Virus record (IMG/VR): IMGVR_UViG_2519103024_000004
From: a virus
Lineage: Duplodnaviria > Heunggongvirae > Uroviricota > Caudoviricetes
Strand: one strand, 5' to 3'
Length of the DNA stretch: 36,031 nucleotides
The notes beneath the pieces are model-generated. The model was not told where the DNA came from, made no database searches, and saw nothing but the letters and a program-made list of their open reading frames with translations. A program made the position numbers and the translations under genes. Positions 1 to 26,096 of the stretch are shown here, one piece after another. How positions within the stretch are numbered: position 1 is the first letter of the stretch; every line of letters begins with the position of its first letter.

Positions 1-891
1 ATGAGAGAACACAAATTTATTAGTGAGCTTTTTTTAGAAAATAGTCAATTTATTCTTATTGGTTTAACTGGGAGAACTGGCTCAGGATGTACTACTGCAG
101 CAAATATTTTAGAACAAAAAGAAATATCTTTTCCAGATAGTAACGTCTTGGCTGAGTATTATAAAGGATTGGATTTGCGGCGTTATGAAATAGTAAAAAA
201 TTTTGCAGAGACTCATTGGAAGAACTTCTATTCGATAAAGGTCAGTGATCTCATTTCAATATATTTGCTCCTTTTATCTCCATCGGCCTTAGCTAAATTC
301 ATTCAGTTTTCTGCAAGTAAAATCCCCGATAAAAAAGAAAATTCGATTTCCTTTAAGGCAGCCAAGAAACTGGTTGTTAATGGTGTGTTCGCTAAAAGTT
401 TGTTGAAGATAAAATATCTTAAGGTGATAAAAAATCTTCTTAATCATGATGATGAGATTGACTTTAAAGGCAGGGGGAAAGATACCTTTATTAGGATATT
501 AACTCTTACTCGAAAATTTACACGGGATTTTAAAAGGGAATTAAATGAACTAGAGCCAGGTTTATATATTGAGCTATATCAGTCAGCAGGAAAGTCAATT
601 AGAAGAATAGGGAAGGTTGATGTAGATTATGAAAATCAAGACTTTATTCCAAAGGCTGTTTTTCATTTGCCTGAAACAATTAATCGTGTTATTAAAATAA
701 TTAGAAAAGTAAAGAATAATAAAGCGTATATAGTCATTGATGCGATACGTAACCCGTATGAAGCTAAATTCTTCAAAGATAGATATGCTGCATTCCATCT
801 GGTTTCTATAAATGCACCAGATGAACATCGAACCAGATATTTAAAGAAATTACATAAGTTCTCAGAGGAACAGATAAAAAAAATTAAATGA
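1..891 (+). CDS. P-loop NTPase / nucleotide-kinase-like protein; possible N-terminal half of a kinase-deaminase fusion
   Basis: 296-aa ORF starting at window base 1; Walker-A-like GLTGRTGSGCTT near the N-terminus; AT-rich; ends at TGA 889-891 just after an A8 run (876-883); frame 2 is open from 878 into the downstream deaminase ORF. Confidence 0.5.
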   Translation: MREHKFISELFLENSQFILIGLTGRTGSGCTTAANILEQKEISFPDSNVLAEYYKGLDLRRYEIVKNFAETHWKNFYSIKVSDLISIYLLLLSPSALAKFIQFSASKIPDKKENSISFKAAKKLVVNGVFAKSLLKIKYLKVIKNLLNHDDEIDFKGRGKDTFIRILTLTRKFTRDFKRELNELEPGLYIELYQSAGKSIRRIGKVDVDYENQDFIPKAVFHLPETINRVIKIIRKVKNNKAYIVIDAIRNPYEAKFFKDRYAAFHLVSINAPDEHRTRYLKKLHKFSEEQIKKIK

Positions 892-1048
892 TGAAGAATC
901 TGGTAAAGGAGATGGCGAGTATAATCATCTTACTAATCCTAATGTAAAAAAATGCATTGAAATTTCAGATATACATTTTTTTAACCCTAAAAAAGAATTT
1001 GATAATAATAATTTTCTCAAAGCACAAATTGCGTGGTATGTATCATTA

Positions 1049-1759
1049 ATGCAACACCCTGGATTAATATCTCCTACCGCCATGGAAAGGGTTATGCAAG
1101 TTGCATATACTGTAAAACTAAATTCTGGATGTATATCTAGGCAAGTAGGGGCGGTTGTGACAGATAATGATAACTCTATCAAGTCAGTTGGTTGGAACGA
1201 TGTAGCAAAAGGTCAAGTTCCTTGTTCTATGAGGTCATTTGATGGGTTATTGCATGATTTTGATGAGGGAACATATAGCCTGTACGAACGAAGTAATACA
1301 AAATTTAGGAGTAAAGTTAAAGAAAATTTAATAAAAATAAGGGCGAGTGATTCAAGTTCTACTGTTTTTAAAGGACTTAATTTGCCATATTGTTTTAAAG
1401 ATATTCACAACAGCCTTGATGATGAAAAGAAAGGGAATCAAGTGCATACCCGTGCATTGCACGCAGAGGAGAATGCTTTTTTGCAATTGGCCAAATATGG
1501 TGGGGTCGGTATTAATGGAGGGAAACTATATACTACAGCTAGCCCTTGTGAACTTTGTGCTAAAAAAGCTTATCAGTTAGGTATGACAGAGATTATTTTT
1601 ATCGATCCATATCCTGGTATAGCGCAAGAACATATTATTAATATCGGTAGCTTTTCCCCTAAACTTATTCAATTTAGGGGTGCAATTGGAAAATCCTACC
1701 ATAGACTTTATGAGCAAGTTATACCTATGAAGGATGAATTGGATTACTTGATGAAATAG
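1049..1759 (+). CDS. cytidine/deoxycytidylate deaminase-family zinc-binding protein
   Basis: 236-aa ORF with HAEENA (H-A-E) and SPCELCAKK (PCxxC) motifs typical of CMP/dCMP deaminases; same frame is open upstream to 878, so the annotated Met may not be the true N-terminus. Confidence 0.6.
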   Translation: MQHPGLISPTAMERVMQVAYTVKLNSGCISRQVGAVVTDNDNSIKSVGWNDVAKGQVPCSMRSFDGLLHDFDEGTYSLYERSNTKFRSKVKENLIKIRASDSSSTVFKGLNLPYCFKDIHNSLDDEKKGNQVHTRALHAEENAFLQLAKYGGVGINGGKLYTTASPCELCAKKAYQLGMTEIIFIDPYPGIAQEHIINIGSFSPKLIQFRGAIGKSYHRLYEQVIPMKDELDYLMK

Positions 1760-1772
1760 AATTTTGGCTGTT

Positions 1773-2786
1773 TTATATCAAGTTTAATGGGTTCTTAGTA
1801 ACGGCATCTTCAAGATGATCTGGTGAGAAATGTGAGTAAACCATGGTCATCTTGATATCCGAATGTCCCAAAATATCCCTTAGCACAAGTATGTTCCCGC
1901 CATTCATCATAAAGTGGCTAGCAAACGTATGTCGCAGCACGTGGGTGCATTGGCCATCCGGTAGATCTATACCTGCCCGTTTTACTGCTCGTTCAAAGGC
2001 TTTTCTACATGGTGAGAATAACTTCCCTCTGTTCTTTGGGAGTTCGTCATACAGCTCCTGTGATATGGGTACTGTTCTGTTTTTCTTGCCTTTTGTTTTT
2101 GTATAAGTAATTCGGTATTTCGATATTTGGTGGCCCTGCAGATTTTCGGCTTCACTCCACCGTGCGCCAGTAGCTAGGCATATTTTTGCAATCATTAGTA
2201 AGCTAGGGTTTTGAGATTCAGCACATGCCGCCAACAGGCGCTTGATTTCGTCCGTGGAAAGAAAAGCCAGCTCACCTTCGGCAATTTTGAAGGTCGGAAG
2301 TCCTGCCAGCGGGTTTGGTGCTGACCAGTGTCCTAGTTTTTTTAATGTACCGAACACAGATGATAGATTGCGCTGTTCAAGGTTTACCGTACGGGGCTTT
2401 ACGGGCGACATAAGTGTGCCATCTTCATTTCGTATTTCACCTTTTAACCGTGCTTCGCGGTATTTTGTAAAGTCACCAGCTGTCAGTTCTGAGGCGATGG
2501 GATCGCCTAGACCATTACAGATAATTCTAAGTTTCGCCATGAGGCGCTTGGGGTCTGCGAGTGTTTGACCATACAGGGAATACCAAAGCTCAATTAATTC
2601 TGATAGGCGTCGCCGATCATCCTTTTCACCCAACCACGGTTTTTTATTCACTTCTTCCATTGTGAAGCTTTCAAACGCAATGGCTTCGCCTTTCGTAGCA
2701 AATTGCTTACGCACGCGCTTGCCATTGCGTCCATTGGGATAGCACTCACACAACCATTTTCCGTTCGGCTGTTTTCTGATGGTCAT
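1773..2786 (-). CDS. int: tyrosine integrase (P2-family site-specific recombinase)
   Basis: 337-aa ORF with C-terminal HVLRHTFASH (HxxR) and MTMVYSH (Tyr) motifs; sits downstream of the repressor on the same strand as in P2 C-int. Confidence 0.9.
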   Translation of the reverse strand: MTIRKQPNGKWLCECYPNGRNGKRVRKQFATKGEAIAFESFTMEEVNKKPWLGEKDDRRRLSELIELWYSLYGQTLADPKRLMAKLRIICNGLGDPIASELTAGDFTKYREARLKGEIRNEDGTLMSPVKPRTVNLEQRNLSSVFGTLKKLGHWSAPNPLAGLPTFKIAEGELAFLSTDEIKRLLAACAESQNPSLLMIAKICLATGARWSEAENLQGHQISKYRITYTKTKGKKNRTVPISQELYDELPKNRGKLFSPCRKAFERAVKRAGIDLPDGQCTHVLRHTFASHFMMNGGNILVLRDILGHSDIKMTMVYSHFSPDHLEDAVTKNPLNLI

Positions 2787-2787
2787 A

Positions 2788-3153
2788 TCAAAGGCTCTTA
2801 ATGATTTTCAGTGCGCGGCCTACTACCTCAATGTCATCCAGACCGCACTCAAACGATGAATCATCCTGATGCACTACTAATTTGTTTCCCGGGAGCCGAG
2901 TCAATTTAACAATGCTTTTTATCCCGTCGATATCGACTAACCACATACCATTTACTGGTGGTGTTTGGTTGCGATCTATTAAATAAGAATCACCAGAAGT
3001 AGTCACCAGCAGTAGGTTGCTTGAGTCTGAGGGGAGTATGCTGCTATCAATGATTGCTTTTCCAGCATCGACCAATAAACCACCGTTGAGAGTCGCCTTG
3101 TCAATTTCAGGAGATACTAGTTCAGAAAGAGGTACAACCTTGCTGGAGTTCAC
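2788..3153 (-). CDS. S24/LexA-like autoproteolytic C-terminal domain of a CI-type repressor, separated from the HTH ORF by an apparent frameshift
   Basis: 121-aa ORF with GTG start; TSGDSY (Ser nucleophile context) and VKLTRLPGNK...SSFE resemble the LexA/lambda-CI S24 domain; its frame opens within an A7 run (minus strand, plus 3164-3170) where the HTH ORF ends. Confidence 0.55.
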   Translation of the reverse strand: MNSSKVVPLSELVSPEIDKATLNGGLLVDAGKAIIDSSILPSDSSNLLLVTTSGDSYLIDRNQTPPVNGMWLVDIDGIKSIVKLTRLPGNKLVVHQDDSSFECGLDDIEVVGRALKIIKSL

Positions 3154-3419
3154 GGAATTGATATTTTTTTAGGTTTAATGTTTGGACCTGGCTCTCCCTG
3201 TCCGGTGGTTAGCCACAGTAAAGAAACTCCTGTTTCCAAGGCGCACTGAATCACCCACTCTGCAGGAAAACTATCTCTTAAGTATCTGTTTGCCATGGTG
3301 CTTTTTGATGCGCCTAAGTGATCGCAAAGTTGCTGTCTGGACTTGAAATCATAGGCTGCCATTAGTCTATGGATAGCCTCTCTTCCCCCTGTATTCTCTC
3401 CAGCCTTTACCTGTATCAT
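3150..3419 (-). CDS. HTH DNA-binding N-terminal part of CI-type prophage repressor
   Basis: 89-aa ORF at the P2 C / 186 cI position, divergent from the early operon; Q-rich helix-turn-helix-like segment (SRQQLCDHLGASKSTMANR); AGGA ribosome-binding site upstream. Confidence 0.6.
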   Translation of the reverse strand: MIQVKAGENTGGREAIHRLMAAYDFKSRQQLCDHLGASKSTMANRYLRDSFPAEWVIQCALETGVSLLWLTTGQGEPGPNIKPKKISIP

Positions 3420-3431
3420 TTTTTAATCCTG

Positions 3432-3483
3432 TTGACGTATCAAATATTGGATCGTAGTATCTCGATGTATCAAATATTGAATC
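3432..3483. promoter_or_regulatory. lysis-lysogeny switch region: promoter-like TTGACG-N17-TAGTAT with two operator-like repeats
   Basis: TTGACG at 3432-3437 and TAGTAT at 3455-3460 (17-nt spacer) face the apl-like gene; near-palindromic GTATCAAATATTG(G/A)ATC occurs at 3437-3453 and 3467-3483. Confidence 0.4.
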
Positions 3484-3538
3484 AAGTAAAACGAGATAAA
3501 ACGACGTAAACCAAACCTTAATCGGGAGATACTGCACT

Positions 3539-3781
3539 ATGAGCACTGATATTTCAATTCGTGTACCAAAAGAGATGGCTACGCCTGCAGAGTTCGCGGA
3601 ATGGGAAGGTATCTCCCGCGGCTCCGTGTATCAAAAAATTCACCATGGTCAGCTTGCTAAATACATGGTCAAGAAAGAAAAAAACAAAGGCCGCGTAAGT
3701 CTGCGTTATTTAATGTACAAAACCGATCAGGTCCGTGAATCCCTCGGTCATTCCAACTTCCGCGTCATTGTTGGTAAGTGA
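3539..3781 (+). CDS. Apl/Cox-like excisionase/transcriptional regulator
   Basis: 80-aa basic ORF, first gene of the rightward early operon opposite the repressor; GGGAG ribosome-binding site. Confidence 0.55.
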   Translation: MSTDISIRVPKEMATPAEFAEWEGISRGSVYQKIHHGQLAKYMVKKEKNKGRVSLRYLMYKTDQVRESLGHSNFRVIVGK

Positions 3782-3813
3782 GTTCAATTATGAGAACTTT
3801 CTAAGGGGATAGC

Positions 3814-4323
3814 ATGTTTGATTATAAGATTTCCAAACACCCGCATTTTGATGAAGCCTGTAGAGCTTTTGCACTTCGTCACAATATGGCGAAGCTGGCA
3901 GAACGTGCAGGAATGAATGTCCAGACTCTGCGAAACAAACTCAACCCAGATCAACCGCATCAGCTCAATGCGCCAGAAATCTGGCTGCTTACCGATCTGA
4001 CTGAAGATTCAACGCTGATAGATGGTTTTCTGGCACAGATTCACTGCCTGCCATGTGTACCGATTAATGAGGTAGCAAAAGAGAAACTGCCGCATTACGT
4101 CATGAGTGCAACCGCAGAGATCGGGCGTGTTGCTGCAGGTGCGGTATCTGGCGATGTAAAAACCAGTGCAGGTCGTCGTGATGCTATCAGCAGCATTAAC
4201 TCTGTAACACGACTGATGGCGCTGGCTGCTGTTTCACTGCAGGCCCGTTTACAGGCTAACCCTGCGATGGCGAGTGCAGTTGATACCGTGACTGGCCTCG
4301 GTGCTTCATTCGGTTTGCTGTGA
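3814..4323 (+). CDS. CII-like lysogeny-establishment regulator (phage 186 CII-like)
   Basis: 169-aa ORF directly after the apl-like gene; size and position match 186 cII; AAGGGGA ribosome-binding site. Confidence 0.55.
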   Translation: MFDYKISKHPHFDEACRAFALRHNMAKLAERAGMNVQTLRNKLNPDQPHQLNAPEIWLLTDLTEDSTLIDGFLAQIHCLPCVPINEVAKEKLPHYVMSATAEIGRVAAGAVSGDVKTSAGRRDAISSINSVTRLMALAAVSLQARLQANPAMASAVDTVTGLGASFGLL

Positions 4324-4330
4324 GGTGCTT

Positions 4331-4531
4331 ATGCTTACGAAAGAACCATCATTTGCATCGCTGCTGGTTAAACAAAGCCCGGCAATGCACTACGGTCACG
4401 GCTGGATCATGGGTGAGGATGGTAAACGCTGGCATCCGTGCCGTTCACAAGATGAATTGCTGGCAGAACTATCTACGAAAAAACGGGGGAACAAATGGCT
4501 ATTGAAGGCGCTGCGGCGACTGTTCCATTAA
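4331..4531 (+). CDS. hypothetical early protein
   Basis: ATG at 4331 preceded by GAGGTG; 66 aa; in the early operon. Confidence 0.4.
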   Translation: MLTKEPSFASLLVKQSPAMHYGHGWIMGEDGKRWHPCRSQDELLAELSTKKRGNKWLLKALRRLFH

Positions 4532-4836
4532 GCCCCGGTGAACGCCTGAATGGACTTAATCATATTGCGGAGTTAAGGGCGAAAGTTTTTGGTCTTAATA
4601 TTGAGTCAGAGCTTGAACGGTTTATTAAAGATATGCGTGATCCACGGGATATTAATAGCGAACAAAATAAACGGGCACTGGCTGCCATATTCTTTATGGC
4701 AAAAATTCCAGCTGAACGTCATAGCATCAGCATTAATGAGCTGACCACTGACGAAAAGCGGGAGTTGATTAAAGCAATGAATCATTTTCGTGCAGTGGTG
4801 AGCTTATTTCCCAGACGGCTAACCATGCCGAATTAA
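4495..4836 (+). CDS. hypothetical early protein
   Basis: 113-aa ORF with GGGGGA ribosome-binding site; in the early operon. Confidence 0.45.
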   Translation: MAIEGAAATVPLSPGERLNGLNHIAELRAKVFGLNIESELERFIKDMRDPRDINSEQNKRALAAIFFMAKIPAERHSISINELTTDEKRELIKAMNHFRAVVSLFPRRLTMPN

Positions 4837-4903
4837 CCAACTAATGAAATTAATGGCGTAAACCCGCCGGGCATCCCTTTATCTAAATTCAGGAGTATTG
4901 ATT

Positions 4904-5137
4904 ATGCGTAATATTGAAACCCTCACGACTAAAACCGGACCGGATGACGCAGGGCTAAATATTTTACTGACAGAGGCTCGTCTGGAAGAACGCCGGGCAA
5001 GGGCTGAAGCAATGGCTGCCCGCCTTGATAGTCTTGCGTGTCATATCACATCCCGCCAGCTAAACCACGTCGAAGCGGCAGAACTGCTGCGTGTGACCGC
5101 TGAAGCAATCCAGAACGAAGCGCAGGAGATCCACTAA
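4904..5137 (+). CDS. hypothetical early protein
   Basis: ATG at 4904 preceded by AGGAG (4891-4895); 77 aa, Ala/Arg/Glu-rich helical. Confidence 0.45.
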   Translation: MRNIETLTTKTGPDDAGLNILLTEARLEERRARAEAMAARLDSLACHITSRQLNHVEAAELLRVTAEAIQNEAQEIH

Positions 5138-5364
5138 TGGCTGATGCAATGGATCTCGTACAGCAGCGCGTTGAAGAAGAACGCCAGCGCCATATTCGTG
5201 CTGCCCGTGCCAAAACACCGGGCGTGTCTCGCGTGCTTTGCATTGAATGTGAAGTGCCAATTCCGCCAGCACGCCGCCGCGCCATTCCTGGAGTGCAGCT
5301 TTGCATTACCTGTCAGGAAATCGCAGAGCTGAAAGGCAAACATTACAACGGAGGTGCTGTATGA
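5137..5364 (+). CDS. TraR/DksA-family C4 zinc-finger protein
   Basis: 75-aa ORF with CIECEVPI...CITCQ (CxxC-N17-CxxC) motif. Confidence 0.6.
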   Translation: MADAMDLVQQRVEEERQRHIRAARAKTPGVSRVLCIECEVPIPPARRRAIPGVQLCITCQEIAELKGKHYNGGAV

Positions 5365-6218
5365 GCACCATCCTGAAATGGGCGGGAAATAAAACCGCAA
5401 TTATGTCCGAACTGAAAAAACACCTTCCTGCTGGCCCGCGACTGGTTGAACCTTTCGCGGGTTCCTGTGCAGTGATGATGGAGACGGAGTACCCCAGCTA
5501 TCTTGTTGCGGATATTAATCCTGATTTAATCAACCTCTATAAAAAGGTTGCTGCTGATTGTGAATCGTTTATATCTCGCGCCAGAGTTTTATTTGAGATC
5601 GCAAACAGGGAGGTGGCTTATTACAACATAAGGCAGGAGTTTAATTACTCAACTGAAATTACTGATTTCATGAAAGCGGTATATTTCCTGTATCTCAATC
5701 GTCACGGTTACCGTGGTTTATGTCGCTATAACAAGAGCGGGCATTTCAACATTCCCTACGGTAATTATAAAAATCCGTATTTCCCTGAAAAAGAAATTCG
5801 CGCATTTGCAGAAAAAGCCCAGCGGGCAACGTTTATCTGCGCCAGCTTTGATGAAACGCTGGCGATGTTGAAGGCGGGGGATGTGGTGTATTGCGATCCG
5901 CCGTATGACGGTACGTTTTCCGGTTATCACACTGACGGTTTCACTGAAGATGACCAGTATCACCTTGCATCCGTTCTTGAACATCGGTCATCAGAAGGAC
6001 ATCCGGTCATTGTTTCTAACAGTGACACATCCCTGATCCGTTCGCTGTATCGCAATTTTACTCACCACTATATCAAGGTAAAACGCCGCATCGGTGTGGC
6101 AGCTGGCGAGGGTAAATCAGCAACAGAAATCATTGCTGTTTCCGGGCCGCGCTGCTGGGTGGGATTTGATTATTCGCGTGGCGTGGATAGTTCTGCCGTG
6201 TACGGAGTACGTGCATGA
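5361..6218 (+). CDS. DNA N6-adenine methyltransferase (Dam-like, orphan)
   Basis: EPFAGSCAV (SAM-binding FxGxG-like) and CDPPYDGTF (DPPY) motifs; ATG at 5361 with GGAGGTG ribosome-binding site; no cognate restriction endonuclease adjacent. Confidence 0.85.
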
Positions 6219-8629
6219 GTCATGCCGATATGAACAACTGCAGCGGCGTTAACGAGGTCGCCGCAGCATTCTCATGGAACAGCCCGAAAAAGGCTATTAA
6301 CCCTTATCTGGACCCGGCGGAAGTTGCGCCGGTTTCTGCGCTTTCAAACCTGATCACTCTGTACGCTACCGATAACGAGCAGGAACAGCTGCGCCGCGAG
6401 GCACTGAGTGATCAGGTCTGGGAGCGTTATTTCTTTAATGAATCCCGTGATCCTGTCCAACGCGAAATGGAGCAGGATAAGCTTATTAGCCGGGCAAAGC
6501 TGGCGCATGAGCAGCAGCGTTTTAATCCAGACATGGTCATTCTGGCGGACGTTAACGCCCAGCCTTCCCATATCAGCAAGCCGCTGATGCAACGTATTGA
6601 ATACTTCAGCAGACTGGGCAGGCCAAAGGCTTATTCCCGCTATTTGCGTAAGACGATTAAGCCATGTCTGGAACGGCTGGAGCATGTACGCGACAGTCAG
6701 CTATCCACTTCTTTTCGCTTTATGGCAAGCCATGAAGGGCTGGACGGCCTGCTGATTCTGCCTGAAATGAGTCAGGATCAGGTAAAACGCCTGTCCACCC
6801 TGGTAGCTGCGCATATGAGCATGTGCCTTGATGCCGCTTGTGGCGATTTGTATGCCACCGATGATGTTAAGCCAGAAGAAATCCGCAAGACATGGGAAAA
6901 GGTAGCAGCGGAAACCCTGCGACTGGATGTCATACCGCCTGCGTTTGAGCAACTTCGTCGGAAAAGAAACCGCCGCAAACCCGTGCCCTATGAACTCATT
7001 CCGGGTTCGCTGGCGCGTATGTTGTGCGCCGACTGGTGGTATCGGAAATTATGGAAGATGCGTTGCGAATGGCGGGAAGAGCAGTTGCGTGCTGTCTGCC
7101 TGGTCAGCAAAAAAGCATCTCCCTATGTTAGCTATGAAGCCGTGATGCATAAACGTGAGCAGCGCCGCAAGTCACTGGAGTTTTTCCGTTCTCATGAACT
7201 GGTGAACGAAGACGGCGACACGCTGGACATGGAGGATGTGGTAAACGCCAGCAGCAGCAACCCTGCGCATCGCCGCAATGAGATGATGGCCTGTGTTAAA
7301 GGTCTGGAGCTTATCGCGGAAATGCGCGGTGACTGCGCCGTTTTCTACACCATCACCTGTCCGTCACGTTTCCATTCCACGCTAAATAACGGCAGGCCCA
7401 ACCCGACCTGGACAAATGCGACGGTAAGACAAAGCAGCGATTATCTGGTCGGCATGTTTGCTGCATTTCGTAAGGCTATGCATAAAGCCGGGTTGCGCTG
7501 GTATGGCGTGCGGGTGGCTGAGCCTCATCATGACGGCACCGTTCACTGGCACCTATTGTGTTTCATGCGCAAAAAAGACCGCCGCGCCATCACTGCATTA
7601 CTGCGTAAGTTTGCCATCCGTGAAGACCGCGAGGAGCTGGGCAATAACACGGAGCCACGCTTTAAGTCTGAGCCGATAAACCCGCGCAAAGGAACGCCGA
7701 CAAGCTACATCGCGAAATACATCAGTAAGAACATTGACGGGCGTGGTCTGGCTGGCGAGATCAGTAAGGAAACGGGTAAATCCTTGCGTGATAACGCTGA
7801 ATACGTTAATGCCTGGGCGTCTCTGCATCGTGTACAGCAATTCCGCTTCTTTGGTATTCCGGGACGTCAGGCTTACCGTGAACTTCGCTTGCTGGCTGGT
7901 CAGGTGGCAAGGCAACAGGGTGACAAAAAAGCAGGTGCGCCGGTACTGGATAACCCGCGTCTTGATGCCATTCTGGCTGCTGCTGATGCTGGTTGTTTTG
8001 CTACCTACATCATGAAGCAGGGCGGCGTACTGGTTCCCCGTAAATATCACCTCATCAGAACCGCTTATGAAATCAACGAAGAGCCGACCGCCTATGGCGA
8101 TCACGGTATTCGTATTTATGGCATCTGGTCACCCATTGCAGAGGGCAAGATCTGCACTCATGCAGTGAAGTGGAAAATGGTTCGTAAAGCCGTTGACGTT
8201 CAGGAGGCGGCAGCCGACCAGGGCGCTTGCGCCCCTTGGACTCGTGGCAATAACTGTCCCCTTGCTGAAAATTTGAACCAACAGGAGAAAGATAAATCAG
8301 CTGATGGGGACCCCAGAACGGACATTACCAGCATGGATGACAAGGAGTTGCACGATTACCTGCACAGTATGAGCAAAAAAGAGCGCCGGGAACTGGCAGC
8401 AAGGTTACGCCTGGTGAAACCGAAACGGCGTAAAGACTACAAACAGCGAATTACAGACCATCAGCGACTGCAGCTCGTGTATGAGCTGAAGTCCAGAGGA
8501 TTTGATGGCAGCGAGAAAGAGGTCGATTTACTCCTTCGCGGAGGCAGTATTCCGTCAGGAGCAGGCCTGCGTATCTTCTATCGGAACCAGCGTTTGCAGG
8601 AAGATGATCAGTGGCGGAACCTGTATTAA
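6215..8629 (+). CDS. A: rolling-circle replication initiation endonuclease (P2 gpA-like)
   Basis: 804-aa ORF at the conserved position; HWHLL (HUH-type) and YIAKYISK (catalytic Tyr) motifs; start overlaps the Dam stop. Confidence 0.85.
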
Positions 8630-8720
8630 TTACGCGGATTAACAATTCGTGCTCTTAATAATACCAGGCATATCAGGCTGATGAACGTAAAAAACGTTTT
8701 ACATCAGTAAGATTATTATA

Positions 8721-8740
8721 TACTGTAAATATAAACAGTG
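8721..8740. promoter_or_regulatory. LexA (SOS) box
   Basis: TACTGTAAATATAAACAGTG matches the CTGT-N8-ACAG SOS-box consensus; lies about 40-60 bp upstream of the small ORF and DinI-like gene. Confidence 0.55.
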
Positions 8741-8781
8741 GTTATGCATACAGTATTGCGTGTGGTGTCATAGGAGGAAAG

Positions 8782-8970
8782 ATGCAGGACTATTTTTTGG
8801 AGTCTTTGAAGCTCCAGCGCATTGATTTTTTTCTTAAGCTTGTAGCGGCTAGTGAGTGTAGTGATGAAGAGAAGGGGCTGGCTCTGCAGTGGGTTTCTGA
8901 ATTGACTGATGAACTCATGGCAAAAATCAGAACCCACGAATACAACCGCTCAATGGATGTCATCAGCTGA
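8782..8970 (+). CDS. small acidic protein, first gene of the SOS-controlled module
   Basis: 62-aa ORF with AGGAGG ribosome-binding site immediately upstream and a LexA box in the promoter region. Confidence 0.4.
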   Translation: MQDYFLESLKLQRIDFFLKLVAASECSDEEKGLALQWVSELTDELMAKIRTHEYNRSMDVIS

Positions 8971-8980
8971 GGTGACTTTT

Positions 8981-9214
8981 ATGCGCATTGAAATAATGAT
9001 CGATAAAGAGCAGAAGATTAGCCAGTCTACCCTGGACGCCCTTGAATCCGAGCTTTACCGCAATCTGCGCCCCCTGTATCCCAAAACGGTAATTCGCATT
9101 CGCAAAGGTAGCTCTAACGGTGTGGAACTAACCGGACTGCAACTGGACGAAGAAAGAAAACAAGTGATGAAAATTATGCAGAAGGTGTGGGAAGACGACA
9201 GCTGGCTGCATTAA
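8981..9214 (+). CDS. DinI-family protein (phage 186 Tum-like antirepressor candidate)
   Basis: ATG at 8981 with GAGGTGA ribosome-binding site; 77 aa ending ...VWEDDSWLH, characteristic of the DinI family; downstream of the LexA box. Confidence 0.6.
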   Translation: MRIEIMIDKEQKISQSTLDALESELYRNLRPLYPKTVIRIRKGSSNGVELTGLQLDEERKQVMKIMQKVWEDDSWLH

Positions 9215-9348
9215 GAAACGTTGCTGGCGTCTGAACTTGCTTCTGGCGTCAGCAAGGTTGAACAACGAGCCCTTGCGAGGCGTTAGCTCTGTAGTGCATG
9301 TCTATGCCGCATGAGATCGCATGATCGTTTGAGGATCGTTTTTGCTAA

Positions 9349-9374
9349 GGCCCGCCAGAACTGGCGGGCTTTTG
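9349..9374 (+). terminator. rho-independent terminator candidate after the DinI-like gene
   Basis: GCCCGCCAG / CTGGCGGGC 9-bp stem followed by TTTTG. Confidence 0.45.
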
Positions 9375-9410
9375 CGTAGATCATGCAGGTGCATGAAAAC
9401 CACTACATAA

Positions 9411-9446
9411 AGCGGGCAGGCGTGGCGGGGATACGAGCGCGCACTC
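9411..9446. other. candidate cos (cohesive end) region
   Basis: GGCGTGGCGGGGA... resembles the start of the P2/186 cohesive-end sequence as I recall it; lies in the A-to-Q intergenic region where P2 cos sits; partial match only. Confidence 0.25.
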
Positions 9447-9642
9447 TGGGGTAAAATGGTCAAAATCCACCGCAATTTACTGGCTCGGGAACGTAGTTAG
9501 TTTTGTAGGTATAAACGGCTCTCACGTTAGATAGGCATGCAGGATGTGTTAAATCGTTGTGATGAAGTTAACGGTGACTGAGACAGTTTAGGTCTAAGAT
9601 ATAACTTCTGGGTTAGTTAAAAATTGGAATAGTAAGACATTT

Positions 9643-9939
9643 ATGAAAACTACTTATAGCTATGATTTTCAATATATGCGCAAAGGTCAGGATCGCCCTG
9701 ATGATGATGGAGAGGTTGTAGGGTGTAATTCAGAAGACAACTCGCTTTTGATGCTTCCAAATGTGGGAGACTACGTAACAATTACGAATAAGGGTGGGCG
9801 TGCTCAATTTGATGGGCGGGTGAAAACAAGGCTTTTCAATTACCTACGCATTGCTGATGGTCATGTTCATTGCTCCATTTGCATTGTAGTTGAGGAAGTT
9901 GATATGGACTCCGTATGGGGGGCACTAATTAAAGAATAA
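9643..9939 (+). CDS. hypothetical small protein (cargo between cos and portal gene)
   Basis: 98-aa ORF preceded by AT-rich promoter-like DNA; no P2 counterpart recognised; followed by a hairpin. Confidence 0.45.
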   Translation: MKTTYSYDFQYMRKGQDRPDDDGEVVGCNSEDNSLLMLPNVGDYVTITNKGGRAQFDGRVKTRLFNYLRIADGHVHCSICIVVEEVDMDSVWGALIKE

Positions 9940-9945
9940 TAGAAT

Positions 9946-9961
9946 GCCTGCAAATGCAGGC
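9946..9961. terminator. hairpin between convergent genes (possible bidirectional terminator)
   Basis: GCCTGCA-AAT-TGCAGGC inverted repeat between the 98-aa ORF stop and the Q stop. Confidence 0.35.
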
Positions 9962-9969
9962 GCTTTAAT

Positions 9970-11010
9970 TTACTCAGAAATATCTAAGTTGTAAGATTCA
10001 AAGCAAATCACTTTTTCACCTAGCCAGTTGTTCAGCTCTTGCAGCCGCTTTTGCAGTGGCATCAGTTCATTGCGGACAAACACTCGACTAGCCTTCTCCA
10101 CATCCCCAAACCCCCCGACATTATTAGGCATTATCCCCATCATTTGTGGCGGCACACGATGCGCCGCCATCATGTCGTCCCGGCTCACGTTCTTGATATT
10201 CAGGAACTCATCCTTCGCCGCCACTTCTGACAACGGGATAATCTGAAGCCCGTCCTTTTTACCGTTAGGCGAGTACATAAACAGGTTACGGAAGTTACCA
10301 GGACCTTTGGCGCTTTTCATCGCATTGCGGAGGTTGTTCACATCCTCCTGGTTCTGCGCAGCATCGGTCATGTACATGATGAAGCCTGCATGACTGCCGT
10401 TAATGTAATACTTGCGACGGAACAGCGTGGCGGACTCGTTGAGCAGGGCTGACGGAATGGCAGAAAGATAACCGGGCAGGCCGTAGATCTCCTGGTTAAT
10501 GTCCGGTTCCATCAGATGAAAAATGCTGCCTTTCGTGAACTGATACGGCTGGGTTGTCATACCGTATTGCACAAACCAGTAGGTATCCAGGTCTAACCCG
10601 CGTCGGGTGTATTTTGCCAGTGCAGGCTCAAGGGCGATAACTTCACCGAAGCGGTTCGTGCGTTTCTCCAGGTAGGCGTTACCAAAAACCAGATAGTCCT
10701 GCACAAAACGCGAAAAAGCCTGCTGGCTGAGCAGCGGGTGAGGGATGTAGGTGCTGGTCAGAATGTTGCACTTCACTGCAATCGGTGAGCTGTGATGCAC
10801 GGCGGCGCGGAAGGTTCGCGCCAGTCCGTCGAAACTCACAGGCGGCTCATACCAACGATCCATCTGTACGCATTCCACATAGTCCAGCAGTTCGCGGCGG
10901 TCCAGAACAGGAACGGGATCACCGAAGCTGAATGCTTCGGCTGAAGTCTGGCTTTTATGCTGGATCTGTTTCGTCGACGCAGCGCGGTTCTTCTTACTCT
11001 TTCCCATCAA
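9970..11010 (-). CDS. Q: portal protein (P2 gpQ-like)
   Basis: 346-aa ORF, convergent partner of P in conserved Q-P order; size matches P2 Q. Confidence 0.9.
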   Translation of the reverse strand: MMGKSKKNRAASTKQIQHKSQTSAEAFSFGDPVPVLDRRELLDYVECVQMDRWYEPPVSFDGLARTFRAAVHHSSPIAVKCNILTSTYIPHPLLSQQAFSRFVQDYLVFGNAYLEKRTNRFGEVIALEPALAKYTRRGLDLDTYWFVQYGMTTQPYQFTKGSIFHLMEPDINQEIYGLPGYLSAIPSALLNESATLFRRKYYINGSHAGFIMYMTDAAQNQEDVNNLRNAMKSAKGPGNFRNLFMYSPNGKKDGLQIIPLSEVAAKDEFLNIKNVSRDDMMAAHRVPPQMMGIMPNNVGGFGDVEKASRVFVRNELMPLQKRLQELNNWLGEKVICFESYNLDISE

Positions 11011-18284: not shown

Positions 18285-18723
18285 ACTGCAGAAAGTGGAC
18301 GACTGGCTGAGTGCCTTGCTGGCGAATCTGGAGCCAGCCGCAAGAAGCCGCATGATGCGCCAGCTGGCGCAGGAACTGCGCCGGATACAGCAGCAGAACA
18401 TCAGGATGCAACGCAATCCAGATGGCAGTAGTTATGAACCGCGACGGGTAACAGCACGCAGTAAAAAGGGGCGCATCAAACGTCAGATGTTTGCAAAGCT
18501 GCGAACCACAAAATACCTGAAAACTGCCGCCAGCGCCGATTCTGCCAGCGTGCAGTTTGAAGGCAAGGTACAGCGCATTGCCCGTGTTCACCATTACGGC
18601 TTGCGTGATCGCGTCAGCCGTAAGGGGCCACAGATACGTTATGCTAAACGTAGGTTACTTGGAATTTATGATACTGATTTTGATATTATAGAAGAGATAA
18701 TCATAAATTTTTTGATTCGTTAG
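18277..18723 (+). CDS. S: tail completion protein (P2 gpS-like) with an altered, AT-rich-encoded C-terminus
   Basis: N-terminal MAELQKVDDWLSALLANL... resembles P2 S as I recall it; the last ~17 codons lie in AT-rich DNA and overlap the 3' end of the convergent cargo gene. Confidence 0.8.
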   Translation: MAELQKVDDWLSALLANLEPAARSRMMRQLAQELRRIQQQNIRMQRNPDGSSYEPRRVTARSKKGRIKRQMFAKLRTTKYLKTAASADSASVQFEGKVQRIARVHHYGLRDRVSRKGPQIRYAKRRLLGIYDTDFDIIEEIIINFLIR

Positions 18724-19861
18724 ATTCATTAATTTTCTTAAAGTATGAGTCTATTTTTTCAATTAATAAATTGATGCTTTTTATAAATTCTTTTGTTTCT
18801 TTCTCTGTTGGTTCATGTGATGTATGAGCTATTTTGTCACGTAATTCTTTCCTGTTTTTATTTGCATGTTGCCACTCAAGTGGCGCAATTTCGGGTACAG
18901 AGATGTTAAAGAGTTGTTTGAATAGTTTTTTACATCTATCATCGAACTTCCAGTTTTTATTTAATGTTTCTTTTGTCTGGCATTCATTGATACCATTGCG
19001 ATGAAAGGCATTAATAATTTTTCTGAGAATATAGCTTTCAAGGCCTGCTGATGCTTCAATTACGGCTGATCTAAATGCACCTTTATGAACAAGATTGTCT
19101 GCTCTAATCAATAATAGTTCAGGATGTTCATTGAATTCATTTGACATTAAACGTTTTTTGAAATTATCAATGAGACTTTCATCGTGTTTATACCAGCTTT
19201 CTCTCATTAATGGGGGGATTACTCCAACTAAAGGAATTGCACTTATCTTAATACCATCGCAATAATGCTCTTGTAACACTCCGTTGGTAAATCCTGAGCC
19301 AACTTGATAAAGAGATATCTCGTCTGCAAATTGATCTTTAAAGGCAACTCTATACTGTTTTATAAAGTGGTTTATTATTCCGATACATTCCTCTGATCTT
19401 TTAGGTGGAAATATCTCTCTAGCAGTTTTTATTTTTCTCTCTAACTCTATTTTTTTATCTATATCTTGCTGGCTCATTTTGGATAGGAGCATCTCAGCAT
19501 CTTCCACAGATGGGAAGTTATCTTCTTTCCTTATTTGGTTTCTTATAGAGTTGATTAGTTCTTCATGTGATATTTCTAAAAGGTCAAAACATTCCCAATA
19601 GTTGGCGAGAGAAATAATAGTCCGGCATTTCATTATCCCTCTTTCATTTGTGTGATGTGGTAGTAGTTGTTCTCTGGTACCGATTAATAGGGTTTGAGGG
19701 AATAAGCTTGCATCTTTAAATAGTGCATAGTAATCGTTGTGAACTGTTAAGCGTAAATGGTTATTTTCATATAGAAAATCATAATCACCATCTGGAATAT
19801 TGAGGACATAAGGCAACTCGACCAAGTAACGTGCAGCAAAGATCATTTCAGTCATCTTCAT
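18701..19861 (-). CDS. hypothetical 386-393-aa protein (AT-rich cargo at the S/V junction); possible HEPN-like Rx4H motif near the C-terminus
   Basis: long minus-strand ORF in a ~1.2-kb AT-rich island inside a GC-richer tail operon; likely ATG at 19859-19861 (the track's upstream start is TTG); RDKIAH fits Rx4-6H. Confidence 0.6.
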   Translation of the reverse strand: MKMTEMIFAARYLVELPYVLNIPDGDYDFLYENNHLRLTVHNDYYALFKDASLFPQTLLIGTREQLLPHHTNERGIMKCRTIISLANYWECFDLLEISHEELINSIRNQIRKEDNFPSVEDAEMLLSKMSQQDIDKKIELERKIKTAREIFPPKRSEECIGIINHFIKQYRVAFKDQFADEISLYQVGSGFTNGVLQEHYCDGIKISAIPLVGVIPPLMRESWYKHDESLIDNFKKRLMSNEFNEHPELLLIRADNLVHKGAFRSAVIEASAGLESYILRKIINAFHRNGINECQTKETLNKNWKFDDRCKKLFKQLFNISVPEIAPLEWQHANKNRKELRDKIAHTSHEPTEKETKEFIKSINLLIEKIDSYFKKINESNESKNL

Positions 19862-19874
19862 ATGAGAATTCAAT

Positions 19875-19892
19875 TGTGCCAAAAATCATACA
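19875..19892. promoter_or_regulatory. late-promoter activator site candidate (TGT-N12-ACA) upstream of V
   Basis: TGTGCCAAAAATCATACA immediately upstream of V; lies in the divergent region shared with the cargo gene. Confidence 0.4.
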
Positions 19893-19937
19893 CTGCCACA
19901 ACGATGAAAAAAAATCTTGCTTTGCAACTATAGAAGG

Positions 19938-20516
19938 ATGAATGCACAACTAACCGAAATCATGCGCCTTATCACCAACCTGATCCGCACTGGTGTAGTC
20001 ACCGAAGTGGACAGGGAAAACTGGCTTTGCAGGGTGAAAACGGGCGAGCTTGAAACCAACTGGATCAGCTGGCTGACGCTACGTGCCGGAAATGCCCGGA
20101 CATGGTGGCGACCATCGGAAGGTGAGCAGGTGGTGCTGCTGAGTCTGGGCGGCAATCTGGAGACCGCCTTTGCGCTGCCCGCTGTCTATTCGAATCAGTT
20201 CGCACCACCGTCGACGTCGGCGGACGCCTGCGTGACAGAACATCCTGACGGTGGCTGGTTTGAATACGAACCCGCCACCGGGCGCTGGTATGTCAGGGGC
20301 ATCAAATCAATGGTCATTGAGGCCGCTGACAACATCACCCTGAAAACCAGTGAGTTTGTACTGGAGGCTGACCGCACGCGCATTAACAGTGAAGTGGTGA
20401 TCAATGGTGGAGTTACCCAGGGCGGCGGAGCGATGAGTTCTAACGGGATCGTGGTTGATGCGCATCAGCATACTGGCGTCCTGAAAGGCGGCGATACAAC
20501 CGGAGGCCCGGTATGA
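19938..20516 (+). CDS. V: baseplate spike protein (P2 gpV-like)
   Basis: MNAQLTEIMRLITNLIRTGVV... start and overall pattern resemble P2 V as I recall it; ATG at 19938 (the track start 19917 is TTG). Confidence 0.85.
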   Translation: MNAQLTEIMRLITNLIRTGVVTEVDRENWLCRVKTGELETNWISWLTLRAGNARTWWRPSEGEQVVLLSLGGNLETAFALPAVYSNQFAPPSTSADACVTEHPDGGWFEYEPATGRWYVRGIKSMVIEAADNITLKTSEFVLEADRTRINSEVVINGGVTQGGGAMSSNGIVVDAHQHTGVLKGGDTTGGPV

Positions 20517-22365: not shown

Positions 22366-24146
22366 GCACAAAATTTTATACCCTGCTGACGGATATTGGC
22401 GCGGCGAAACTTGCCAGCGCCGCCGCGCTCGGTGTGCCGCTAAAAATTACCCATATGGCGGTGGGCGATGGCGGCGGAGTATTGCCAACGCCGGACGCAA
22501 AGCAGACGGCACTGGTAAATGAGAAACGCCGGGCTGCGCTGAATATGCTTTATATCGACCCGCAGAACAGCAGCCAGATTATTGCTGAACAGGTGATCCC
22601 TGAAAACGAGGGCGGTTGGTGGATACGTGAAGTGGGCCTGTTTGATGAGTCCGGGGCATTGATTGCCGTGGGCAACTGCCCGGAAAGCTATAAGCCGCAA
22701 CTGGCTGAAGGCAGCGGGCGCACCCAGACCGTGCGCATGGTGCTGATTACCAGCAGTACGGACAATATCACCCTGAAAATCGACCCTGCTGTAGTGCTGG
22801 CAACCCGTAAATACGTGGATGATGAAGTCCTGGAATTAAAGCTGTATGTGGATGACCAGATGAGAAACCACATTGCCGCACAAGATCCTCATACCCAGTA
22901 TGCGCAGAAACATAATCCGACATTTACCGGAGAACCAAAAGCGCCGACGCCTGCAGCAGGAAATAACACCACGCGGATTGCGACCACTGAGTTTGTTCAG
23001 GCCGCTATTACTGCTCTGATTAACGGTGCGCCAGCCACGCTGGACACACTGAAAGAAATTGCCGCAGCCATTAACAATGACCCGAAATTCAGTACCACCA
23101 TTAACAATGCGCTGGCACTAAAAGCACCGCTGTCGAGTCCGGCACTCACCGGAACGCCAACAGCACCTACTGCGGCACAGTCGGTCAACAATACACAGAT
23201 TGCCACTACAGCTTTTGTGAAATCAGCGATTGCAGCAATGGTGGGTTCTGCACCCGCGGCACTGGATACACTGAACGAACTGGCGGCGGCACTGGGGAAT
23301 GATCCGAACTTTGCCACGACAATGCTTAATGCGCTGGCAGGTAAACAACCGCTGGACAATACGCTTACCAATTTGAGTGGAAAGGATGTAGCTGGTCTTC
23401 TCGCATACCTTGGTTTGGGAGAAGGCTCTGCATTACCTGTTGGTGTGCCTGTTCCGTGGCCCTCCGCAACCCCGCCAACGGGCTGGCTGAAATGCAACGG
23501 CGCTGCCTTTGATAAGGTGAAATATCCCCATCTTGCTACAGCATATCCATCAGGGAAACTACCTGATCTCCGTGGTGAGTTTATTCGTGGATGGGATGAC
23601 GGGCGTGGTATTGATGCAGGACGTGCTTTATTGAGCATTCAGACTGGGATGCTGGAAAAACACCGCCATATTGTTGTTGCCAACGATGGGTATGATTCAA
23701 AAGAGGAATGGGAACTGGCGACAATCTTCAGAAGAGCATATACGCAAGGCCGGGGCTTGATGCTGCCGATGCCNNNNNNNNNNNNNNNNNNNNTTGGTTT
23801 GGGAGAAGCGGCAAAAAAGAATGTGGGGACAGGGACGAATCAGATACCTGATATGGGTAGCTTCACGCTTTCTGTTTCAGGTACTGGATATCAAAAATTA
23901 CCATCTGGTTTTATTCTTCAGTGGGGCTCAATCGGCGCACCAGGCATTGCACAGGATGTGGTAACCCATTTTCCGATTGCATTTCCAAACCGATGTCTGC
24001 GTGTTTTGGTCTCACAAGACTACACACCAGATAGCGGGGCTGTTGGTTATATTGCCTGTGCAGGTTTTAGTCCCGACCCGGTTAAATTTATATCCAGAGC
24101 CAGTACTCCTGGCCTCGGCGCTTCATTTTTAGCGTTAGGCTGTTAA
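22362..24146 (+). CDS. H: tail fibre protein (P2 gpH-like); assembled ORF spans a 20-N gap, so the C-terminal part is uncertain
   Basis: Ala/Thr-rich repeats, then a tail-collar-type receptor-binding segment ([18 protein letters not shown]...[17 protein letters not shown]); Ns at 23774-23793. Confidence 0.7.
23410..23773 (+). repeat. copy A of the tail-fibre variable segment (plus orientation), truncated by the N gap
   Basis: reverse complement of 25289-25652, including the first codons of the alternative tip; differs by a one-base G-run length (G4 at 23752-23755 versus C5 at 25317-25321). Confidence 0.6.
23774..23793. other. assembly gap (20 N)
   Basis: run of n characters in the sequence. 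Confidence 0.99.
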
Positions 24147-25628: not shown

Positions 25629-25652
25629 ACCAACAGGTAATGCAGAGCCTTC

Positions 25653-26084: not shown

Positions 26085-26096
26085 CGTTTAAGAAAA
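26071..26096. promoter_or_regulatory. candidate invertase crossover site (gix/hix-like)
   Basis: TTCTCCCAAACCAACGTTTAAGAAAA matches about 19 of 26 positions of the hix/gix core as I recall it; its half-site TTGGTTTGGGAGAA recurs inverted at 23410 and after the N gap at 23794. Confidence 0.3.

What the first reader, a model, noticed from the sequence alone, without database searches (positions are those of the whole stretch)
2788..3419. CI-type repressor split into HTH and S24 domains at an A7 homopolymer
The 89-aa HTH ORF ends and the 121-aa S24/LexA-like ORF opens at an A7 run (minus strand; plus 3164-3170). One extra A would give a single ~210-aa lambda-CI/LexA-style repressor. If the break is real, the HTH fragment may still repress but would be uncoupled from RecA-stimulated autocleavage; if not, it is another homopolymer error in this assembly.
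Basis: partly seen in the sequence, partly recalled or inferred. Interest (0 to 1): 0.45.

Follow-up and report, generated by a model that had tools for sequence, protein, structure and literature searches.

The report
Phage repressor gene split by miscounted A-run
The two short reading frames are the halves of an ordinary, well-known prophage repressor gene, and the single missing A that separates them is most likely a base-counting error in this genome assembly rather than a biological feature.

Summary
On the minus strand an 89-aa ORF (3419..3150) and a 121-aa ORF (3153..2788) meet at an A7 run (plus 3164-3170), and one extra A gives a 210-aa protein.

That protein is a phage 186-type CI repressor (Pfam PF07022 + PF16452; PDB 2FJR, E=1e-27). 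It is identical to WP_000616877.1, which is recorded intact on hundreds of contigs. Every good reference checked has A8 here: 60 of 60 listed RefSeq complete E. coli genomes, 26 of 26 IMG/VR contigs and 9 of 9 metagenome contigs.

The window comes from HE572566.1. Against five close genomes it carries three private 1-nt indels in A/T runs and only 10 private substitutions. Four of those genomes show 0 indels to 210 substitutions (p=1.6e-4). The window also has a garbled, indel-ridden duplication in the invertible tail-fibre segment. The rest of the prophage is intact, so its host needs a working repressor. The downstream ORF has no ribosome-binding site.

Best reading (about 0.7): an A8->A7 homopolymer miscall. 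Rival (about 0.25): a very recent real slippage frameshift.

The parts
2788..3419 (-). cI gene of a 186/Fels-2-type P2-like prophage. It would be 633 nt and 210 aa with A8; here it is 632 nt and out of frame.
   Evidence: With A8 the product is 100% identical to WP_000616877.1.
3150..3419 (-). Upstream ORF, 89 aa. It holds the CI helix-turn-helix domain (PF07022, residues 14-77), part of the linker, and four out-of-frame residues (ISIP).
3164..3170 (-). A7 run (T7 on the plus strand), spanning codons 84-86 (Lys-Lys-Asn in the A8 form). It sits in the poorly conserved inter-domain linker, where model confidence is low. Relatives with the same flanks have A8.
2788..3153 (-). Downstream ORF, 121 aa from a GTG that overlaps the upstream TGA. 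It holds the CI C-terminal oligomerisation domain (PF16452). No Shine-Dalgarno sequence precedes it.
3434..3483 (.). Two 20-nt direct repeats (GAYGTATCAAATATTGRATC, 30 nt start to start) between cI and apl. They are candidate CI operators in the switch region.
   Evidence: Their role is inferred from position only, by analogy with the 186 pR operators.
3539..3781 (+). apl/cox-like excisionase-repressor gene, transcribed divergently from cI. Intact.
3814..4323 (+). cII (PF06892). Intact.
1773..2786 (-). Integrase gene, immediately downstream of cI in the lysogenic operon. Intact.
8723..8738 (+). Perfect LexA-box core, CTGTAAATATAAACAG, upstream of the tum-like operon. It is the only match in the window.
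   Evidence: The position corresponds to p95/LexA of phage 186.
8782..9214 (+). Split tum-like SOS operon: a 62-aa ORF (8782-8970) and a DinI-like ORF (8981-9214, 41% identical to the C-terminal half of 186 Tum).
   Evidence: The split arrangement is described for Fels-2 and PSP3 in PMC3121763. The 62-aa ORF has no detectable similarity to the Tum N-terminus, so its antirepressor role is inferred.

Best explanation
The window carries an ordinary, intact cI immunity-repressor gene of a 186/Fels-2-type P2-like prophage. The prophage is integrated at ssrA in an ST95-like E. coli, in assembly HE572566.1. The true sequence most likely has eight A's in the linker codons Lys-Lys-Asn, and the assembly reports seven. 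That is a homopolymer under-call, and it artificially cuts the gene into an HTH ORF and a C-terminal-domain ORF.

The real protein would work like 186 CI (inferred by homology). The N-terminal HTH binds operators between cI and apl. The C-terminal domain has a LexA-like fold with no catalytic apparatus and drives oligomerisation. SOS induction comes from a LexA-repressed Tum-type antirepressor, not from RecA-stimulated self-cleavage.

Shown here: the domain identities, the A8 state of relatives, the excess of private indels in this assembly, and the integrity of the rest of the prophage.
Inferred: that the A7 is an error rather than a mutation, because the reads were not available.
For: 1. A8 is the rule among references.
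- The closest phage, Kp4845-2, has A8 and a 210-aa ORF.
- All 40 top RefSeq complete E. coli hits span 802 nt for the 801-nt query.
- All 60 listed of 74 hits span 162 nt for a 161-nt query, and all are annotated as intact CI.
- 26 of 26 IMG/VR contigs and 9 of 9 metagenome contigs with identical flanks have A8.
- The exact fused protein is on 388 contigs, in 879 index blocks. The 89-aa fragment is on 2.

2. There is no decay. Both halves are 100% identical in amino acids to the intact protein.

3. The assembly shows an error signature.
- Over window 1-9290, compared with five RefSeq genomes, the window has 3 private 1-nt indels (886, 3163, 8688), all in or beside A/T runs, and 10 private substitutions.
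- Four of the genomes have 0 private indels and 210 private substitutions. Fisher p=1.6e-4.
- One of the other two indels also breaks a gene, the dCTP deaminase, which is intact in N96, EC5502, 600468 and JX21CE8.
- The invertible tail-fibre region holds a 420-nt tandem duplicate. The two copies differ by six 1-nt indels and one mismatch.

4. Biology argues the same way.
- Every other regulatory, replication, lysis, head and core tail gene compared is full length; only the invertible tail-fibre region is garbled.
- In this phage group loss of repression is lethal. A lexA null is lethal because of Fels-2 (Bunny et al. 2002, as cited in PMC3121763).

5. The downstream ORF has no independent expression signals. 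There is no SD before the GTG and no stimulatory RNA structure (z=+1.4).

6. Most other public contigs with A7 also carry further homopolymer deletions. Three of them (L013, L014, L018) share the same T7->T6 in apl. This is what a systematic platform error looks like.
Against: - No reads or platform information for HE572566.1 could be obtained, so the error is inferred, not seen.
- 9.76 kb of host flank is 100% identical to APEC O1 with no indel, so the assembly is not globally poor. That stretch contains no run of 7 or more A/T, so it does not test homopolymer accuracy.
- Another A8 run at 876-883 agrees with N96.
- A8 tracts are genuine replication-slippage hot spots.
- Three contigs from other runs carry A7 (L011, L016) or A9 (L017) with no other homopolymer indel. 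One SPAdes contig (L015) has a clean nonsense codon at position 82. Genuinely truncated alleles of this gene probably exist in nature.
Confidence: 0.7

Rival explanations
1. The A7 is a real, very recent slipped-strand deletion (A8->A7) in the prophage of this strain. It leaves an 89-aa HTH-only fragment, and perhaps a weakly re-initiated C-terminal fragment. The lysogen would survive for one of three reasons: the mutation arose in the sequenced culture, another homo-immune prophage supplies CI, or the prophage is crippled elsewhere.
For: - A8 runs are known slippage hot spots.
- Length variants at exactly this tract occur in other datasets, including contigs with no other indel: L011 and L016 with A7, L017 with A9.
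- An independent nonsense allele lies four codons upstream in L015.
- The host flank of this assembly is error-free over 9.76 kb.
- The tail-fibre region is abnormal. If that is real, the phage could be defective for infection.
Against: - There is zero sequence decay in either half.
- The lytic genes are intact, so derepression should kill the host.
- The isolated 186-type HTH domain lacks the C-terminal domain that makes the dimer and 14-mer needed for cooperative operator binding (PMC3675496).
- The window's private-indel excess points to error.
- None of 60 listed RefSeq complete genomes and none of 35 IMG/VR or metagenome contigs has the allele.
Confidence: 0.25
2. The split is functional. 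Full-length CI would be made from the A7 allele by transcriptional slippage or -1 ribosomal frameshifting. Alternatively, the tract acts as a contingency switch that sets the ratio of HTH-only to full-length repressor.
For: - The required shift (-1, or +1 A in the mRNA) is the kind produced on A runs.
- The zero-frame codon after the run is ATA, a codon that is rare in E. coli (from general knowledge, not measured here).
- The tract varies in length among public contigs.
Against: - The run is not conserved. SEN8 has A6 followed by G; MLG42 and SopEPhi have A7 followed by G, in frame.
- The linker is the most variable part of the family.
- Relatives never show the two-ORF layout.
- Slippage-prone length in most bacteria is about 9 nt (PMC1088944).
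- The frame T_AAA_AAA_A is not a canonical X_XXY_YYZ heptamer.
- There is no downstream RNA structure.
Confidence: 0.03

Closest known systems
Coliphage 186 CI immunity repressor (PDB 2FJR full length, 2FKD C-terminal 14-mer)
   Same: - Same two-domain architecture: PF07022 HTH plus PF16452 C-terminal domain.
- Same locus layout, int-cI divergent from apl-cII-fil.
- A LexA-box-controlled tum-like operon lies after the replication gene.
   Different: - Only about 32% identical to 186 CI.
- 210 aa rather than 192 aa, with a longer linker.
- tum is split into two ORFs, as in Fels-2 and PSP3.
- In this assembly the gene is interrupted by a 1-nt shorter A run.
CI of Fels-2 / SopEPhi / SEN8 / Klebsiella Kp4845-2 type P2-like phages (for example WP_000616877.1 'phage repressor protein CI' of E. 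coli prophages)
   Same: - With A8 the window's protein is identical to WP_000616877.1.
- It is 85-89% identical to the Klebsiella and Salmonella versions.
- Length is the same, 210 aa.
   Different: Only the missing A.
LexA / lambda CI / UmuD (peptidase S24) self-cleaving proteins
   Same: - The architecture is likewise an N-terminal HTH joined by a flexible linker.
   Different: - No PF00717 match.
- hhalign to LexA is only 8% probability, with a 9-residue gap over LexA's Ser119 loop.
- The candidate Ser145, Lys172 and Ala119-Gly120 are not conserved: 24/33, 29/33 and 4/33.
- 186 itself has Ile, Glu and Asp-Lys at the corresponding positions.
- Induction in this group is by antirepressor.
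Homopolymer indel errors in genome assemblies, producing split-gene pseudo-pseudogenes
   Same: - A single-base length change in the longest mononucleotide run of the gene.
- Perfectly conserved flanking protein sequence.
- Other private indels in A/T runs in the same assembly.
- The same tract is shortened in other error-prone contigs, together with further homopolymer deletions.
   Different: The platform and reads for HE572566.1 were not available, so this remains an inference.

Membership tests
Phage 186-type CI repressor | N-terminal CI-type HTH domain (PF07022) | tested here: met
   E=5e-31 for residues 14-77 against profile positions 1-64 of 65.
Phage 186-type CI repressor | C-terminal CI oligomerisation domain (PF16452), homologous to 2FKD | tested here: met
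   [not shown]
Phage 186-type CI repressor | Both domains on one polypeptide of about 190-210 aa | tested here: inconclusive
   As assembled, the gene is split into 89 and 121 aa. With A8 it is 210 aa. Nearly all of the 120 listed homologues are single proteins of about 210 aa carrying both domains; the few shorter ones (155-191 aa) are truncated forms, not split genes.
Phage 186-type CI repressor | Position in the lysogenic operon upstream of int, facing apl-cII across a switch region | tested here: met
Phage 186-type CI repressor | Assembly into dimers and a 14-mer wheel; cooperative operator binding | not testable with these tools
   Known for 186 CI (PMC3675496). Here it is inferred from homology only.
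Phage 186-type CI repressor | SOS induction through a LexA-repressed Tum antirepressor | tested here: inconclusive
   A LexA box lies at 8723-8738, followed by a 62-aa ORF and a DinI-like ORF that is 41% identical to the Tum C-terminal half. The 62-aa ORF shows no similarity to the Tum N-terminus. Function is inferred from Fels-2 and PSP3.
Peptidase S24 (LexA / lambda CI / UmuD) self-cleaving repressors | Sequence match to Peptidase_S24 (PF00717) | tested here: not met
   No hit at E<=1. None in the precomputed domains of 120 relatives.
Peptidase S24 (LexA / lambda CI / UmuD) self-cleaving repressors | LexA-like beta fold of the C-terminal domain | tested here: met
   [not shown]
Peptidase S24 (LexA / lambda CI / UmuD) self-cleaving repressors | Invariant Ser nucleophile and Lys general base | tested here: not met
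   The candidate Ser145 is Ser in 24 of 33 sequences (otherwise F, C, D or L). Lys172 is Lys in 29 of 33 (otherwise R or N). 186 CI has Ile and Glu at these positions. hhalign places a gap over LexA's Ser119 loop.
Peptidase S24 (LexA / lambda CI / UmuD) self-cleaving repressors | Ala-Gly (or Cys-Gly) cleavage site in the linker | tested here: not met
   The window has Ala119-Gly120, but Ala is present in only 4 of 33 relatives.
Peptidase S24 (LexA / lambda CI / UmuD) self-cleaving repressors | RecA*-stimulated autocleavage | not testable with these tools
   Needs biochemistry.
Programmed frameshift / transcriptional slippage gene | Slippery tract and two-ORF layout conserved among homologues | tested here: not met
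   The tract varies (A6, A7 or A8, in frame) and the linker is hypervariable. No relative among the RefSeq, IMG/VR and metagenome hits has two ORFs.
Programmed frameshift / transcriptional slippage gene | Run long enough for efficient slippage (about 9 nt or more), or a canonical heptamer with a downstream stimulator | tested here: not met
   The run is A7. The threshold is about 9 nt (PMC1088944). The 96 nt that begin at the A run fold less stably than shuffled controls.

The most novel reading that the evidence does not exclude
The A8 tract in the disordered linker of this widespread CI allele could be a genuine natural hot spot. It would repeatedly generate HTH-only (A7 or A9) repressor alleles, and the copy in this strain would be one of them. 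Such alleles would give prophages with weakened or leaky immunity: clear-plaque-type or spontaneously inducing variants, or dominant-negative HTH fragments.

A further untested twist concerns the subclade nearest the window. It retains Ser145, Lys172 and, in some members, Ala-Gly look-alikes on a LexA fold. A residual self-cleavage activity in this branch of the 186 CI family is therefore not strictly excluded.
Probability: 0.1. Interest if true: 0.4.

Novelty: not a real feature. Interest (0 to 1): 0.08.

Why it matters
It matters mainly as a caution. Taken at face value, the split would suggest a repressor that no longer responds to the SOS signal, or a dead immunity gene in an intact prophage. 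The evidence instead points to a one-base homopolymer miscall in an otherwise known gene.

The check also corrects the functional label. This repressor belongs to the 186 CI family: a LexA-like fold without the protease, induced through an antirepressor. Predictions about RecA cleavage therefore do not apply.

If the A7 were real, it would be an example of a recent repressor knockout in a complete prophage. That would be worth an induction test, but it would still be a conventional frameshift mutation.

Tried and rejected
- An exact-pattern scan of GTDB species-representative genomes for the tract (A6-A9) found nothing. The representative genomes simply lack this allele.
- Literature searches for HE572566, ERR4565137 and GCA_000285375 found nothing. 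The sequencing platform and strain name remain unknown.
- I tried to measure the assembly's error rate in host DNA. 9.76 kb of flank is identical to APEC O1, but it has no long homopolymer, so it says nothing about homopolymer accuracy. The look-up from the right-hand side returned only an unrelated short contig.
- I looked for a second, intact cI copy in the same genome by looking up the fused protein. HE572566.1 was not among the three places displayed, but 22 similar places were not shown, so this is inconclusive.
- I considered that the window's 'SGDSY', 'IVKL' and 'DAGK' motifs are a live S24 Ser-Lys dyad and cleavage site. I rejected this because the positions are not conserved and because of the weak, gapped hhalign match to LexA.
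- I considered programmed frameshifting or slippage and rejected it.
- I considered a mutator-strain origin for the indels. I rejected it because the host flank shows no substitutions, and because the window's private substitutions cluster in one patch (8312-8760), which looks like recombination.
- BLASTP of the 62-aa ORF against 186 Tum gave no alignment.

Full report
**Observation**

On the minus strand an ATG ORF runs 3419..3150 (89 aa) and a GTG ORF runs 3153..2788 (121 aa). Between them, on the plus strand, lies T7 at 3164-3170, which is A7 on the coding strand. Inserting one A gives a continuous 210-aa ORF reading ...GEPGPNIKPKKNINSVNSSKVVPL....

**What the gene is**

Pfam assigns the upstream ORF to PF07022 (Phage_CI_repr, the HTH domain, E=1e-31). 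It assigns the downstream ORF to PF16452 (Phage_CI_C, E=1e-28). There is no Peptidase_S24 hit.

The fused sequence matches the crystal structure of the coliphage 186 CI repressor: 2FJR at E=1.2e-27, and 2FKD for the C-terminal domain. A family profile matches these at 7e-68 and 2e-36.

The neighbours are those of the 186/Fels-2 switch. Integrase lies downstream. Facing the gene are apl, cII (PF06892), fil, the B-like gene, dam and the replication gene A. Between cI and apl sit two 20-nt direct repeats spaced 30 nt apart. These are candidate operators.

**How relatives look**

- Four related phages (Kp4845-2, SEN8, MLG42, SopEPhi) encode one 633-nt, 210-aa CI.
- Kp4845-2 has CCT-AAAAAAAA-T (A8) where the window has A7. 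The other three have A6 or A7 followed by G, in frame.
- Among RefSeq complete E. coli genomes, 91 carry the region at full coverage. The 40 best all span 802 nt against the 801-nt query, and the best differ only by that gap.
- With a 161-nt query, all 60 listed of 74 hits span 162 nt and are annotated as intact 'phage repressor protein CI'.
- 26 of 26 IMG/VR contigs and 9 of 9 metagenome contigs with identical flanks have A8.
- The exact fused protein (= WP_000616877.1) is in the public protein collection on 388 contigs and in 879 index blocks.
- Nearly all of the 120 best family members are about 210 aa and carry both domains; a few shorter entries are truncated forms.

**Source and quality of the window**

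The window is 100% identical to HE572566.1 (GCA_000285375.1), a 4.99-Mb chromosome. Its host flank is identical to ST95-type genomes such as APEC O1. The prophage sits at ssrA.

I aligned window 1-9290 with five close RefSeq prophages.
- The window has three private 1-nt indels, all in or next to A/T runs: 886-888, 3163 and 8688. It has ten private substitutions.
- N96, EC5502, 600468 and JX21CE8 together have 0 private indels and 210 private substitutions. Fisher p=1.6e-4.
- The indel at 886-888 also splits the anti-phage dCTP deaminase, which is intact in those four genomes.

The invertible tail-fibre segment contains a ~420-nt tandem duplicate. Its second copy differs from the first by six 1-nt indels and one mismatch. 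There is also a third, inverted copy. This is what a consensus built from reads of both orientations looks like. It is not what evolution produces.

Against this, 9.76 kb of host flank has no error. It also has no A/T run of 7 or more, so it does not test homopolymer accuracy.

**Biological plausibility of a real split**

All other prophage genes compared are full length, apart from the garbled invertible tail-fibre region described above. Both CI halves are 100% identical in amino acids to the intact protein, so there is no sign of decay.

In this phage group derepression is lethal to the host. A lexA null is lethal in Salmonella because of Fels-2 (cited in PMC3121763).

186 CI needs its C-terminal domain to form the dimers and the 14-mer wheel that bind the operators cooperatively (PMC3675496). 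An HTH-only fragment is therefore unlikely to maintain lysogeny. This step is an inference.

The downstream GTG has no Shine-Dalgarno sequence; the preceding bases are AAAUAUCAAUUCC. No RNA structure follows the run. A7 is below the ~9-nt length at which bacterial transcriptional slippage becomes appreciable (PMC1088944). The A run lies in a linker that is hypervariable in the family and disordered in the AlphaFold model (residues 84-98, pLDDT below 50). It is therefore not a conserved recoding signal.

**Other split copies in public data**

The exact 121-aa ORF occurs on 12 contigs.
- Six contigs from other runs have A7, one has A9, and one has a nonsense codon at position 82 with A8 intact.
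- Most of the A7 contigs carry additional homopolymer deletions. L013, L014 and L018 all share a T7->T6 in apl. That points to systematic under-calling.
- L011 and L016 (A7), L017 (A9) and L015 (nonsense) are otherwise clean. Some genuinely truncated alleles therefore probably exist.

This keeps the 'real mutation' rival alive at roughly one in four.

**The S24 question**

The catalytic features are not there as a family trait.
- Ser145 is Ser in 24 of 33 sequences.
- Lys172 is Lys in 29 of 33.
- Ala119 of the 'AG' is Ala in 4 of 33.
- 186 CI has Ile, Glu and Asp-Lys at the corresponding positions.
- A profile-to-LexA alignment has only 8% probability and puts a 9-residue gap over LexA's Ser119 loop. 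The LexA sequence for that comparison was entered from memory.

The window also carries the alternative induction device. A perfect LexA-box core (CTGTAAATATAAACAG, 8723-8738) is the only one in the window. It is followed by a 62-aa ORF and a DinI-like ORF that is 41% identical to the C-terminal half of 186 Tum. This is the split tum arrangement described for Fels-2 and PSP3, where the upstream ORF is the antirepressor (PMC3121763). The 62-aa ORF itself has no detectable similarity to Tum, so that role is inferred.

**Verdict**

The feature is a known gene, a 186-type cI identical to WP_000616877.1. It is interrupted by a one-base shortening of its longest homopolymer, in an assembly that shows other private homopolymer indels and a garbled repeat region.
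- The most likely explanation is an A8->A7 miscall (confidence about 0.7).
- A genuine, very recent slippage mutation is the main rival (about 0.25).
- A functional or programmed split is very unlikely (about 0.03).

Interest is low.

Noticed in passing
window 1-1759 (indel at 886-888): The anti-phage dCTP deaminase cargo gene is 585 aa and intact in N96, EC5502, 600468 and JX21CE8. Here it is split into 296-aa and 236-aa ORFs by an extra A (TTAAATG against TTAATG) just after an A8 run. This is a second private frameshift in the window. RefSeq genome G5 has three different homopolymer deletions in the same gene.
   Followed up: partly
window 8689-8694: A6 where all five close relatives have A7. 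The site is intergenic, about 30 nt upstream of the LexA box. This is the third private homopolymer indel.
   Followed up: partly
window 23398-23755, 25260-25652 and 25673-26096: The invertible tail-fibre segment beside the invertase gene (26152-26715) contains a ~420-nt tandem duplicate. The copies differ by six 1-nt indels. There is also an inverted third copy and a G4-versus-G5 difference at about 23755. The relative N96 has a simple arrangement. It looks like a mis-assembly of reads from both orientations.
   Followed up: partly
window 8723-9214: A perfect LexA box is followed by a 62-aa ORF of no known family and a DinI-like ORF. This is a split tum-type SOS antirepressor operon, as in Fels-2 and PSP3.
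   Followed up: partly
window 34972-35334, and the left flank in L025 1-9760: The prophage lies next to ssrA (tmRNA). The host flank from ygaP to csiD/glaH is 100% identical to APEC O1 and other ST95-type genomes. In this strain the prophage abuts csiD. In N96 and G5 the same side abuts ypjA.
   Followed up: partly
L011-L019 (public contigs carrying the same 121-aa ORF): The A tract of this cI allele varies in other datasets: A7 in six, A9 in one (L017), and a TAA nonsense codon at position 82 in a SPAdes metagenome contig (L015). L013, L014 and L018 also share a T7->T6 deletion in apl.
   Followed up: partly
L011 (SRR23529772 contig), 2659 and 3923-4297: This contig has A7 in cI and a 10-bp deletion in the cI-apl switch region. 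Its integrase is truncated and joined through 373 nt of unrelated sequence to the ogr/gpD end of the phage. It is either a rearranged or excised form, or a mis-join.
   Followed up: no
window 2788-3153 (fused-protein residues 119-120, 142-146, 170-173): The window's CI and its nearest relatives carry 'DAGK', 'SGDSY' and 'IVKL'. These resemble the LexA cleavage site, the Ser loop and the Lys strand. The resemblance is not conserved across the family.
   Followed up: yes
window 18626-19938 and 9290-10000: These segments do not align with the closest prophages. They are variable cargo positions, where relatives carry different genes (an S8 peptidase/AAA ATPase pair, DUF4145, hypothetical proteins). 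I did not examine them.
   Followed up: no
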